NCBI GenBank assembly: GCA_965113315.1 | Contig: OZ220377.1 | Length of the DNA stretch: 64,000 nucleotides | Source: Podarcis vaucheri | Lineage: Eukaryota | Strand: one strand, 5' to 3' | In this document: positions 11,230-16,957 of the stretch, piece by piece | How the letters are laid out: every line of letters begins with the position of its first letter | Numbering within the stretch: the stretch's first letter is position 1 | Made by a program: the position numbers and the translations under genes | The notes under the pieces: generated by a model | The model's database searches: none | Told to the model about the DNA's origin: nothing | The model's input: only the letters and a program-made list of their open reading frames with translations

Positions 11230-11615
11230 CTGCTCTGTTGAATTGTACAGTCTATTCTACCACTTCCACATTTTACTAACTCGTTTCACTCCACGTGTAG
11301 ACCAGGCCTTAACCAATCCCTTTTCAGATTCCAAATCAAGTTCTATGTCTCAATCTTTAATAAATTAAAGGTACCCATGCTATTCATTCAGGTTTGGTGG
11401 GTGGTTGGAGGAAGGCACAACATGTCACAACAGATGCAATATTCAAGGGTAAAACTGATTTTTTCAAGGCAGTAAAACATTGCATTTTCAGTGCTGGGAA
11501 CACATGGACTGCAATAGAAGAATCTGTAACCATGGTGGTAAATAGAGAGGCAAAGAACAAGGTTGAGTGAACTGGGCTACAATTATTTATTTTCACTTAA
11601 GAGATCTGTTTGGGA
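11230..11615 (+). repeat. Arm A of a long inverted repeat (partner at 16573-16957)
   Basis: Reverse complement of 16573-16957 at roughly 80% identity by manual alignment, e.g. gaattgtacagtctattctaccac vs gtggtagaatagattgtacaattc. Confidence 0.92.
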
Positions 11616-11937
11616 TACTAAGTCCTTCAGCCTTTCAGCCTTCCTGCACTGCTCCCTCCCAGCGCACCATAACTCTGGGAATACGTTACAGGCTGCCCCC
11701 CTACTGGCAAGTCCCACAGCCCTGTACCAAATTCAGTCAATATATGCACAAATCTCAAGGGCCCTTGGAGATTATGTTTATTGACCCAGAAATGTACACA
11801 ATTCCCTCCTTGTGGAAAGATTGTGTGCACATTCTCCATGTAGCCTGGTGAATGTGCACAATGGCCAGTTGTTATGCACATTAATCACTCAACGTACAGT
11901 CCATATACAGTATATAGATATAAAGATTACAGTGCGG

Positions 11938-11973
11938 TAAACAAACAAACAAACAAACAAACAAACAAACAAA
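11938..11973. repeat. (AAAC)n microsatellite
   Basis: Seen directly. Confidence 0.97.
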
Positions 11974-13720
11974 CTCACTGCTTACCTGTTGGTAAAACAC
12001 AGAAGTAAATTAAATGCCACCTATAGGATATTGAAGGGATGCCATGTTGTTTTTGTTCTGGATAACAGACTTGTGTTTGGATTTTTTTTGTAGGAGTCTT
12101 TTGTAAGCCCCTCAGGGTTATAAAGCAGGATGCAAGTATTCAAAATAAATAAATAATCTATTTATTGTTATGTCCTGCAAATATTACTTTCTCTAATACT
12201 TTACAGTGTGGTGGAAAAATATGTGATGTGGAATGTTTCCCCATTCATATTTATAAATTGCATTTCTGTTCCCCTGGAGATCTGAGGATACTACACATTG
12301 TTCTTCACTCCCTCATCATTTTACCCCAGCACCCCTGGAAGATAAATTAGGCTGACAGGTAGAGACTTCCCCATGGTCAACCTGTGTGAGCATTACAGCA
12401 GATGAGGATTTTAAACAAGAAGGTCACATTGGCCTTTGTGTTGGACCACACTCACCGACCTCATCAGAATGTCTTCAAACATCCCAGTCTGACGCTTAAT
12501 ATTCATGTGCTGATTGGAACATCAGTGTGGAAGGTCTCTGTGCATTCAAGTGTTGTGTGCTGATGTTCTGTTTAATGCCTGTATATCAGGCTGTCCCCCT
12601 CCCTCCTCCATGCTTTAGTGAGGGGGGGGTGCTCTGTGAACAGCTCTTACATGAATTTCATATTTTATGTAAGCTCCCAGCAATTTTATAAAATAATCTA
12701 AACTGAGAGAGACTTGCCCAAGGCTATTCAGTAAGGTTGATGAGCCGAGTAGGGATTGGGCCCCGTGTCCCTCCACACCAAAACTCAAAATTCTGTCCAC
12801 TTCACCATGTTTGACCTCATTATGGCTTCTTCACTTTTTTAAGTATATACCTTAAAATGTAGTGTATGGATGAGATCACCACATAAAATTGTCTGACACT
12901 TAAACAGACCTTTAGTCCTTTGTCTCAGTATTGTCTGCCACAGGGATGGGGAGAGCCTGTGACAACCCCCCCCAATGTTGTTGGACTACAACACCTATCA
13001 TCCCTGACCCTCAGCATCTGGAAGGCCAAAGGTTCTCCAGCCTTGGTCTATCATGACCAACAGTTGATCTCAGAAAGAGGTCTTTTCCAGCACTGGTACT
13101 GAGACCCTCTTGTTGAGATGTTGAGGCTTCAACTCAACTTTTTCTATATATATAAAAAAGCCCTGCATACACTAATGAAAACACCAGGATTGGCTTCAGC
13201 TCCTCTGAATTTCATGCAAATCCCAGTTTCGCATCTACATAATGTGCGAATGTCACTTAGACCCAGATAAAGAGATATAAATTGCAGAGCTGCATTCATG
13301 AGTACACAAATACTTTTAGGGTTTTTTATGGGGGGGAATTCTATGTCTATTATCTTTATTTCTTTTTGTTTTATTGCTTCAAATTCCCAATGCAACTGTT
13401 CTTGCCTCTGTCCTCACGTTGGAAGCTTCACCTATTGTATTTTGCCTTGCTTGTCTGTGAGCTAAAAGTTTTTTTGTTTTTTTTTAAAGATCTCTGGTTT
13501 CTAATAGCAATAGGTATTTCTTTGCAGGGCAAATAAATTCCACAAGAAATGTCATTTTAATCTGTTTTAATTGACAGCATGCTTTTAAAACACTCTGTTG
13601 ATCTCTCCCAGTGGATTCTGCCACAAGGCACAATCATATCCGCACAAAGCAAGTAAATAATAACAGACACAATTTTTTAAAGTGGAAGATGTCACACACG
13701 CTCTCTCTTTCCCCCTACAG

Positions 13721-13802
13721 ATTCTTCTTAAAATTTTTCCTCAAGTGCAATCAGAATTGTTTGAAAACAGCCGGGAACCCTCGAGATATGCGGCGGTTCC
13801 AG
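13721..13802 (+). CDS. EBF2: EBF2 coding exon (equivalent to exon 7), COE DNA-binding domain: (R)[27 protein letters not shown]
   Basis: Pyrimidine tract ctctctctttccccctacAG, donor GTAAGT, 82 nt. The peptide is the conserved COE DBD segment; KTAGN (vs KNAGN in EBF1/3) is EBF2-type. Confidence 0.97.
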
Positions 13803-15179: not shown

Positions 15180-15428
15180 CAGTCGTACCTTGGATCCTGA
15201 ACGCCTTGAGAGTCGAACATTTTGGCTCCCGAACGCCACAATCCGGAAGTGAGTTTTCTGGTTTGCAAACATTCTTTGGAACCCAAACATCCAACATGGC
15301 TTACATAGCTTCCGATTGGCTGCAGGAGCTTCCTGCAGCAAATCAGAAGCCGCTCCTTGTTTTCCAAACATTTTGGAAGTTGAACGGACTTCCCGAACAG
15401 ATTCTGTTTGACTTCCAAGGTACGACTG
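15180..15428. mobile_element. Tc1/mariner (Tigger/pogo-like) MITE
   Basis: TIRs CAGTCGTACCTTGG...CCAAGGTACGACTG, flanked by TA on both sides; internal palindrome. Confidence 0.9.
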
Positions 15429-15861
15429 TATTTGTTTCATGCCGAGACAGAAATCAAACCACAAATATATATTCACTGTTGTTTTTGCTTTTTGCCCACA
15501 AATGATATGTATATAACTGATTTACATCTATTTGCATTGTGTTTCCTTTGCACTGAAATGAATGGGGTGGAATAACAACTTAATTTTTATAAGTTACCGT
15601 ACTTAATTTCACCACAGCAAATAACAAGGTGGATAATGTAGTTTTGGACAGACAGGAAATTTGCATTCCGTAAGATCCACGATACGGCTGCCTTATCTAT
15701 AAAAGCATTTTGTGCCGCAGCATCTTCTTCTGCACGCGCATGCGTTGTGTGGCTTGAGGACCTCTGGCACTCCCTTCCCCCAGATGCAATACTTCAGTGT
15801 CAAACTACTTCTAAACTTCCTCAGGCACAAGCCTTTATGGCAGACGCTACTATGGATGCTA

Positions 15862-16199
15862 GGGAAAAAACCTCAGCGCCTAGGACTTGCCAGTCGCATG
15901 GTCAGCAGTTCGAATCCCCGCCGCAGGGTACGCTCCTGTTGCTCGGTCCCAACGCCTGCCAACCTAGCAGTTCGAAAGCACCCCCGGGTGCAAGTAGATA
16001 AATAGGGACCGCTTACTAGCGGGAAGGTAAATGGTGTTTCCATGTGCGGCTCTGGCTCGCCAGAGCAGCTTCGTCACGCTGGCCACGTGACCCGGAAGTG
16101 TCTGCGGACAGCGCTGGCTCCTGGCCTCTAGAGTGAGATGAGCGCACAACCCTAGAGTCTGTCAAGACTGGTCCGTACGGGCAGGGGTACCTTTACCTT
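15862..16199 (+). mobile_element. Sauria SINE (Squam1) with 14-bp TSD
   Basis: B-box gttcgaatccc, core gcaagtagataaatagg, (ACCTTT)n tail. TSD tactatggatgcta at 15848-15861 and 16200-16213. Confidence 0.93.
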
Positions 16200-16572
16200 T
16201 ACTATGGATGCTATGCAATTTCCAACCAGGGCTGTGTCCTCTCAAGCAGCGGAATGGAAACAGCGCTGCATGTGACAAATACAAGGATGAATGGAAAATG
16301 TTGTCTCCCTGACCCTCAGATACCTTTAAGAGTATAATTTCACAACTGGCCTTCAGAGCTGTGGTGCTTGTTGTCAGGGGCCTTTTGGGGGCCAACCTGT
16401 AGCATACACCTAGAGTTATGGGGCCTTGGAAGGGAGGAAGACAGGAAGGTTTCCCTACTCACCTGAAAAGATGAGGCTTCAATGAGGGGGTAGATGAAAT
16501 ACTACCCCTCAGCCCTGGCAGCATTGGCTCAACTGCCATTGGTTGTGAGCAGTTAGGATCTCTTACTATGGT

Positions 16573-16957
16573 TCCCAACTGCAGGTCTTTTGTGTGAAAA
16601 TGAATAAATATGACCCAGATCCCCCTGTCTTGTGTCTTGCCTTCTTATTTACCACTATAGTTGCAGACACTTCGGTTGCAGCCCATGTGTGCCAAGCACT
16701 GAAAATACAATGTTCTACTGATTTGAAAAAATTCACTTTTAACCTTGAATGTTGCATCTGTTGTAACATTTTGTCACCACCAGCCCCCAGTAAAGTTGCA
16801 TGCATAGTATGGGTACCTTTGATTTATTAAAGTTTGAGGCTCAGAACTTGGATTGAAATCTGAAGAGGAATTAGTTAAGGCTTTGTGTACACATGGAGTG
16901 AAATGAGGGGGTAAAATCTGGAGGTGGTAGAATAGATTGTACAATTCCTCAGCACAG
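16573..16957 (-). repeat. Arm B of a long inverted repeat (partner at 11230-11615)
   Basis: As for arm A. ORFs 11384..11596(-) and 16594..16830(+) give similar translations (LFTTMVTDSSIAVHVFPALKMQC / LFTTIVADTSVAAHVCQALKIQC). Confidence 0.92.

What the first reader, a model, noticed from the sequence alone, without database searches (positions are those of the whole stretch)
11230..16957. Long, nearly gapless inverted repeat brackets the frameshifting 82-nt exon 7 of EBF2
Seen in sequence: 11230-11615 and 16573-16957 are reverse complements over ~390 bp. My manual alignment gives ~84% identity over a gapless 148-nt block (11240-11387) and ~78% over the second block, with very few indels. The arms sit ~2.1 kb upstream and ~2.8 kb downstream of exon 7. 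I see no TIR, TSD or tail, I do not recognise the family, and no third copy occurs in 64 kb, whereas many repeat families here recur. The arms cannot be the TIRs of one transposon, because the ancestral exon lies between them. Established knowledge: intronic inverted repeats that flank an exon promote back-splicing, exon skipping and ADAR editing. Inference: pairing in the pre-mRNA could loop out exon 7. At 82 nt it is not a multiple of 3, so skipping frameshifts inside the DBD and should trigger NMD. That would be a lineage-specific RNA-structure control on EBF2 dosage. Caveat: G-U-compatible transitions only modestly outnumber incompatible ones in my count, so selection for pairing is not demonstrated.
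Basis: partly seen in the sequence, partly recalled or inferred. Interest (0 to 1): 0.72.

Follow-up and report, generated by a model that had tools for sequence, protein, structure and literature searches.

The report
Old inverted duplication around EBF exon
Two inverted copies of a 500-600-base stretch, about 80% alike and found nowhere else in the genome, flank a short exon of a lizard EBF gene; they are likely the drifting remains of an old DNA-repair copying accident, and nothing here shows that they control splicing.

Summary
The inverted repeat is real: 78.9% over 370 nt, flanking an 82-nt exon whose skipping would put a stop at codon 7 of exon 8. It is longer than reported: a third block pairs 11639-11724 with 16449-16354. 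Its outer 293 nt occur only twice in the genome (controls gave 7312 and 1938 candidates). Its inner part is an old dispersed repeat. Both arms share the junction between the two parts; 0 of 11 other family copies do. So one local segment was copied: a repair-mediated duplication, a known class (PMC2671141). No sign of selection for pairing: G-U excess not above baseline (p=0.20), the left arm changes at the flank rate in two relatives, 0 of 5 changes restore a pair, no conversion tract. Equally strong inverted pairs enclose 3.6-7.8% of background DNA and also bracket a paralog's exon 7. Splicing and editing could not be tested. The scan noted a similar case at a cat-family AFF4 exon (unchecked lead). 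Verdict: new member of a known kind, low interest.

The parts
11230..11522 (+). Left copy, two-copy part (293 nt)
   Evidence: 236 of 289 aligned positions identical to the right copy; only the partner is found genome-wide; one contig at flat single-copy depth in two relatives
11523..11615 (+). Left copy, end of old dispersed repeat Y (sharp end and AATAAA on the opposite strand; LTR-like by shape, unclassified)
   Evidence: 68 of 93 identical to the right copy; aligns with 11 other family copies from the same start
11639..11724 (+).
   Evidence: 65 of 86 identical to 16449-16354
13721..13802 (+). EBF exon 7, 82 nt, phase 2 to 0, in the DNA-binding domain
   Evidence: AG/GT ends and open frame; COE1_DBD match
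16349..16665 (-). Right copy, longer piece of old repeat Y (about 317 nt)
   Evidence: 6 other places at 67-77%; alignments
16666..16957 (-). Right copy, two-copy part (292 nt)
   Evidence: only the partner found (in 1.424 Mb)
16964..17092 (-). Old repeat X (family about 163 nt), cut about 30 nt short at the outer edge of the right copy; possible breakpoint scar
   Evidence: 3 of 3 other copies aligned run on, this one stops 6 nt before the arm
33902..34019 (+). EBF exon 8; carries the premature stop (codon 7 of the shifted frame) if exon 7 is skipped

Best explanation
The two arms are copies of one intronic segment of 500-600 bases, likely duplicated once and inserted upside-down about 5 kb away during repair of a DNA break, and likely drifting apart without selection since. 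The segment held 293 nt of otherwise single-copy DNA joined to an older dispersed repeat, and both copies keep that junction (shown). The right copy is probably the inserted one, because it cuts another old repeat short (inferred, weak). The event is roughly 20 times older than the split from the two relatives read (K2P 0.24 against 1.0-1.3%; inferred). That it brackets exon 7 is probably chance. The arms would still be able to pair in the pre-mRNA, like the many inverted transposon pairs in this genome, and may give low-level editing or skipping as a by-product (predicted, untested).
For: Two copies only: (2-3 candidates each) against 7312 and 1938 candidates for two control repeats; flat one-contig depth over the left arm at 80% likeness in two relatives from two studies, beside a repeat with depth above 1400. 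One event: shared junction, 0 of 11 other family copies carry the outer part; shared outer end; third block. Fits the class: 4629-4957 nt apart, 495 and 604 nt long, no poly(A) tail or target duplication seen, against <=5 kb, <=619 bp and no tail in PMC2671141. Drift: left arm 3 of 386 and 4 of 386 listed changes against 19 of 1931 and 25 of 1900 in flanks (p=1.0, 0.81); of 5 distinct changes 2 broke Watson-Crick pairs on the window's lineage, 1 turns a pair to G-U, 1 turns G-U to a mismatch, 1 is neutral, 0 restore a pair; G-U:A-C 28:17 against 147:138 in 9 far-apart pairs (p=0.20; 2 of 8 controls as high); longest perfect run 13 against 19.7 expected, so no conversion tract. Chance of bracketing: 3.6% (arms <=6 kb) and 7.8% (<=10 kb) of 800 kb of background lies inside a pair scoring >=300 bits; 1 of 3 paralog exons 7 is bracketed within 10 kb (372 bits).
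Against: Indels are fewer than baseline: 3-5 seen, 8.3 expected (P 0.03-0.16). The G-U excess alone is near significance (p=0.068). The outer part is more alike (82%) than the inner (73-76%; p=0.06). Two-copy inverted pairs are uncommon: this was the only inverted one among 9 low-copy local hits in 1.424 Mb, and of the other 8, 3 are young LTR pairs, 3 lie in a cluster whose one tested member is a common repeat, 2 are unchecked. The relatives are only about 1% diverged, so the rate test is weak; 64 rows were not shown (upper bounds for the arm 6 and 8 changes). The right arm was not read in relatives. The missing tail of repeat X was not found on the inner side. The genome search finds only some copies near 70% identity.
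Confidence: 0.72

Rival explanations
1. The duplication was co-opted: the arms pair, loop out exon 7, and send a share of transcripts to nonsense-mediated decay, tuning EBF dosage under selection.
For: Geometry fits; predicted duplex -444 kcal/mol; skip gives a stop at codon 7 of exon 8; it is the only pair >=100 bits within 30 kb that brackets this exon; a 297-bp engineered reverse complement is enough to skip mouse Tbxt exon 6 (PMC10901737, passages); few indels and a mild G-U excess.
Against: No constraint or pair-restoring change in the left arm; 20% mismatch, longest perfect run 13; full-consensus donor; spacing of about 5 kb exceeds the TBXT pair (1448 bp) and even its minor pair (4188 bp); in human, inverted Alu pairs also flank many constitutive exons with almost the same folding energy (d=-0.12; PMC13019027, passages).
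Confidence: 0.07
2. The arms are two independent insertions of one rare, old mobile element whose full length includes the 293-nt part, placed close together by local hopping.
For: The inner part is a dispersed repeat, and arm-to-arm identity there (73-76%) lies within the family's range (65-83% in most local hits). The right copy cuts repeat X as an insertion would. Search sensitivity near 70% is partial: the right arm found 1 family member, a family copy found 16.
Against: 0 of 11 family copies extend into the 293-nt part; four queries covering that part found only the partner; no terminal repeats, target duplication, tail, long frame or codon periodicity (mismatches 21/30/28 by position).
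Confidence: 0.13
3. The arms are scars of an old local inversion with staggered breaks, later reversed, or a duplicated enhancer kept for a DNA-level role.
For: Staggered-break inversions leave inverted duplicates at both ends (recalled); EBF introns carry many conserved elements (recalled); the outer part is slightly more alike than the inner (p=0.06).
Against: Exon 7 is in the sense orientation, so two events would be needed; no further shared blocks between the two intervals; the left arm changes at the flank rate.
Confidence: 0.08

Closest known systems
Repair-mediated duplications (Pace, Sen, Batzer, Feschotte 2009, PMC2671141; parts 1-2 of 8 and passages read)
   Same: Two copies, under 5 kb apart, under 619 bp, no poly(A) tail; intronic; an opposite-orientation case is described there (ACSBG2 exon 7).
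   Different: Lizard, not among the genomes they screened; older and longer than their mean (162 bp); no empty site available, and only one half of the interrupted repeat is found.
Inverted-pair exon loop-out: TBXT AluY/AluSx1 (PMC10901737, passages); genome-wide Alu duplex studies (PMC13019027, PMC13019944, passages)
   Same: Inverted arms of 300-400 nt in both flanking introns, able to pair over an exon.
   Different: Arms come from a local duplication, not a SINE family; about 5 kb apart against 1.4 kb; skip is out of frame; no isoform or deletion evidence here.
Reverse complementary matches that promote back-splicing and skipping in C. elegans (bioRxiv 10.1101/2021.02.28.433292, abstract only)
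   Same: Complementary intronic pair around an exon.
   Different: The zip-2 pair is conserved across five nematodes with conserved skipping; here no conservation above flank is seen and no RNA data exist.

Membership tests
Repair-mediated duplication (PMC2671141) | [quoted passage not shown] | tested here: met
   and depth, for the 293-nt part and the junction; copies below about 70% could be missed
Repair-mediated duplication (PMC2671141) | Copies more than 50 bp and at most 5 kb apart | tested here: met
   4957 nt between the reported arms, 4629 nt with the third block
Repair-mediated duplication (PMC2671141) | Length 50-619 bp, no poly(A/T) tail | tested here: met
   495 and 604 nt; no tail at the four ends, though an old tail could have decayed
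Repair-mediated duplication (PMC2671141) | Inserted copy interrupts an older repeat, both halves present | tested here: inconclusive
   Repeat X is cut at the right copy's outer edge; its last 30 nt were not found on the inner side (p 0.31-1.0)
Repair-mediated duplication (PMC2671141) | Microhomology, filler or deletion against an empty site in an outgroup | not testable with these tools
   No outgroup genome is served; 6 nt between repeat X and the arm may be filler
Inverted-pair exon loop-out (TBXT type, RCM) | Complementary arms in both flanking introns that can form a long duplex | tested here: met
   85% of columns Watson-Crick or G-U; -444 kcal/mol predicted
Inverted-pair exon loop-out (TBXT type, RCM) | Skipped or circular isoform, or editing in the arms, seen in RNA | not testable with these tools
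   No RNA reads could be laid
Inverted-pair exon loop-out (TBXT type, RCM) | Skipping lost when one arm is removed | not testable with these tools
   Needs a minigene or genome edit
Inverted-pair exon loop-out (TBXT type, RCM) | Pairing kept by selection (constraint, compensatory change) | tested here: inconclusive
   Left arm only: flank rate, 0 of 5 changes restore a pair; low power; right arm not read
Pair of copies of a dispersed transposon family | Many dispersed copies over the whole arm | tested here: not met
   Met only for the inner part; 0 of 11 copies carry the outer 293 nt
Terminal inverted repeats of one transposon | Target-site duplication outside the arms and element DNA between them | tested here: not met
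   Outer flanks differ; the host exon lies between

The most novel reading that the evidence does not exclude
A DNA-repair duplication, not a transposon pair, built a long-range RNA duplex that loops out a frame-shifting DNA-binding-domain exon and so gives lizards a lineage-specific, decay-coupled brake on an EBF transcription factor: repair accidents as a source of splicing switches.
Probability: 0.07. Interest if true: 0.65.

Novelty: new member of a known kind. Interest (0 to 1): 0.2.

Why it matters
As it stands it is one clear lizard example of a local repair-type duplication, a class counted in hundreds per vertebrate genome (PMC2671141). If the arms did control exon 7, it would extend the TBXT-type mechanism from SINE pairs to one-off duplications and to decay-coupled dosage control of a developmental factor. 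Because the pair is the only close one around this exon and its outer parts are unique, reads map cleanly and the test is simple.

Tried and rejected
Common-transposon reading rejected for the outer part. Coding (LINE) origin of the low indel count: no long frame, no codon periodicity. Known RNA family: none at 10400-13600; one chance-level hit below threshold at 15000-18200. Further outward or inward shared blocks: none above shuffles except copies of common repeats; the repeat X copy at 10470-10600 matches the right-side copy only weakly (15.5 against a best shuffle of 15.0), so it is not counted as part of the duplication. Profile search of the whole genome was not available; a profile was run on 424 kb only. 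Sequencing runs: no RNA holder listed among 24 runs, which is no evidence either way. Runs X8 and X12 gave no cover over the left arm, which proves nothing. My 'low-copy in 1.424 Mb' filter is leaky, so I give no rate for true two-copy duplicates beyond 0-2 in 1.36 Mb outside the window. Literature: 'EBF2'+'exon 7'+'skipping' 0 papers; 'EBF2'+'circular RNA'+'back-splicing' 7 papers, 6 listed, none on this exon by title or abstract start; EBF1 five-term search 4 papers, likewise; listings only. No supplements were read. A motif at 11296-11312 recalled as a Harbinger-like end was not followed up.

Full report
Observation. The arms at 11230-11615 and 16573-16957 are reverse complements: 78.9% over 370 nt, 302 of 389 columns with 3 indels, 45 transitions and 34 transversions in the local alignment, K2P distance 0.24. 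Between them lies an 82-nt exon, 13721-13802, one of the COE1_DBD matches of an EBF gene whose exon 6 lies about 163 kb upstream and exon 8 at 33902. Exon 6 ends in phase 2, so skipping exon 7 reads exon 8 in a shifted frame with a stop at its seventh codon, far upstream of later junctions; decay of such a transcript follows from established knowledge. The genome has four EBF loci. The name EBF2 is recalled; one search shows only that exon 9 differs from the solved COE1 and COE3 chains. That the animal is a lizard is inferred from a repeat I recall as the Sauria SINE.

Copy number. Each arm, searched against the 1.61-Gb genome, gave 3 candidates: itself, its partner and one short hit at the inner end. 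Queries on the outer part gave only the partner, apart from a hit in the flank. Two control repeats gave 7312 and 1938 candidates. In contigs of two related species from two studies the left arm is covered by one contig at flat depth (8.58, 27.1) at 80% likeness, while the repeat beside it exceeds 1400. Copies below about 70% could be missed.

Anatomy. The short hits led to an old dispersed family, Y: a copy on C18 found 16 other places at 71-84%, one being the right arm. Y starts sharply at 11523 and 16665. Eleven other copies align from that point and none carries the outer 293 nt. Y has AATAAA about 60 nt before a sharp ...CA end, which is LTR-like by shape; no repeat library was available. 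The right copy holds about 317 nt of Y; the left lacks about 100 nt of it and resumes at 11639-11724, pairing with 16449-16354. The unit is thus 495 nt left and 604 nt right: single-copy DNA plus a piece of older repeat, with the junction shared. That marks one segmental copying event. At the right copy's outer edge a second old repeat, X (family about 163 nt), stops about 30 nt short where 3 of 3 other copies run on. This hints that the right copy is the inserted one, but the missing tail was not found on the inner side.

Selection for pairing. (a) G-U against A-C among transitions is 28:17 (p=0.068); 9 far-apart inverted pairs in the same gene give 147:138, and 2 of 8 reach the same share (p=0.20). 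(b) Indels 3-5 against 8.3 expected (P 0.03-0.16), with a 100-nt loss just past the reported boundary. (c) Longest perfect run 13 against 19.7 in shuffles (P of so short a run 0.034): no conversion tract. (d) Left arm in relatives: 3 of 386 and 4 of 386 listed changes against 19 of 1931 and 25 of 1900 in flanks (p=1.0 and 0.81); 64 rows were hidden, so the arm counts could be up to 6 and 8. (e) Of 5 distinct changes, 11331 and 11354 carry in both relatives the letter that matches the right arm, so the window's lineage most simply lost two pairs; none restores a pair. (f) Outer part 82%, inner 73-76% (p=0.06). None of these is significant after so many looks, power is low, and the right arm was not read in relatives.

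Background. In 1.424 Mb, 33 inverted hits of >=300 bits have arms within 10 kb, this one included and near the bottom of the range. In 800 kb of blocks chosen without regard to content, 3.6% of positions lie inside such a pair with arms <=6 kb apart and 7.8% at <=10 kb; exon 7 of the C28 paralog is bracketed by a 372-bit pair, those on C10 and C19 are not within 10 kb. So the pairing potential is ordinary. The origin is less common: this was the only inverted one of 9 low-copy local hits; 3 others are young LTR pairs, 3 lie in a cluster whose tested member is a common repeat, 2 are unchecked.

Mechanism. Shown: two copies, shared junction, spacing, size, no tail. Inferred: synthesis-dependent repair of a break copied a nearby template in reverse orientation, roughly 20 times earlier than the split from the relatives read. 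Predicted: the arms can pair (-444 kcal/mol against -78 and -90 alone). Untested: whether they do, and whether exon 7 is ever skipped. The exon has a full-consensus donor and a clean pyrimidine tract.

Known kinds. Pace et al. (PMC2671141) describe 824 human duplications, up to 619 bp, within 5 kb, without tails, at 0.08-0.65 per Mb of repeat DNA across vertebrates; this locus meets three of five features, one is inconclusive, one untestable. It is built like the TBXT Alu pair (PMC10901737), where pairs 1448 and 4188 bp apart give a major and a minor skip and a 297-bp engineered complement suffices, so an effect is possible. But inverted Alu pairs flank constitutive exons nearly as stably (PMC13019027), captured duplexes lie closer than background (PMC13019944), and edited Alus have partners about 0.8-1.1 kb away on average (PMC4365171). 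Three searches found no paper on skipping of this exon.

Verdict. Real, two-copy, old inverted local duplication, probably neutral (0.72). Selected splicing control 0.07. New member of a known kind; interest 0.2.

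Noticed in passing
L034:8453-9211 and L035:4262-5020 (G000:C10, intron 6 of an EBF paralog, 2-8 kb from its exon 7): Two identical 759-nt direct repeats with TG...CA ends and a 1088-codon stop-free stretch between: a very young LTR retroelement, low-copy in the sample.
   Followed up: partly
L145:7597-L146:1598 and L098:9263-L099:2994: Two more young LTR-type pairs (474 nt at 99.8%; 375 nt at 100%) with long stop-free stretches between.
   Followed up: partly
L014:1-918 and 1460-2378; L018:7042-7720 and L019:2304-2982 (intron 6 of this gene): Near-perfect inverted pairs (99.3% over 919 nt, 542 nt apart; 99.0% over 679 nt, 4.6 kb apart), far stronger RNA duplex candidates than the reported arms, with no exon between.
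   Followed up: no
L069:453-7993 (G000:C10:30050001-30060000): Cluster of four 1.3-1.5 kb copies, 97-99.8% alike, in alternating orientation within 8 kb.
   Followed up: no
window 15178-15431 and 18823-19048: Inverted pair of a common repeat (75% with gaps; 7312 candidates genome-wide) that straddles the right arm and could compete with its pairing.
   Followed up: partly
window 16349-16665; L055-L063, L003, L042:9439-9554: Old dispersed family Y, LTR-like by shape, at least 20 places across, unclassified.
   Followed up: partly
L037:9368-9761 and L038:8572-8992 (G000:C28): Repeat-derived inverted pair (79%, 423 nt) that starts 178 nt before exon 7 of the C28 EBF paralog and brackets exons 7 and 8.
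   Followed up: no
L150:9686-9921 with L151:3091-3314; L043:5043-5564: Two older direct local pairs (73% over 239 nt; 84% over 159 nt), possible local duplications; genome copy number unchecked.
   Followed up: no
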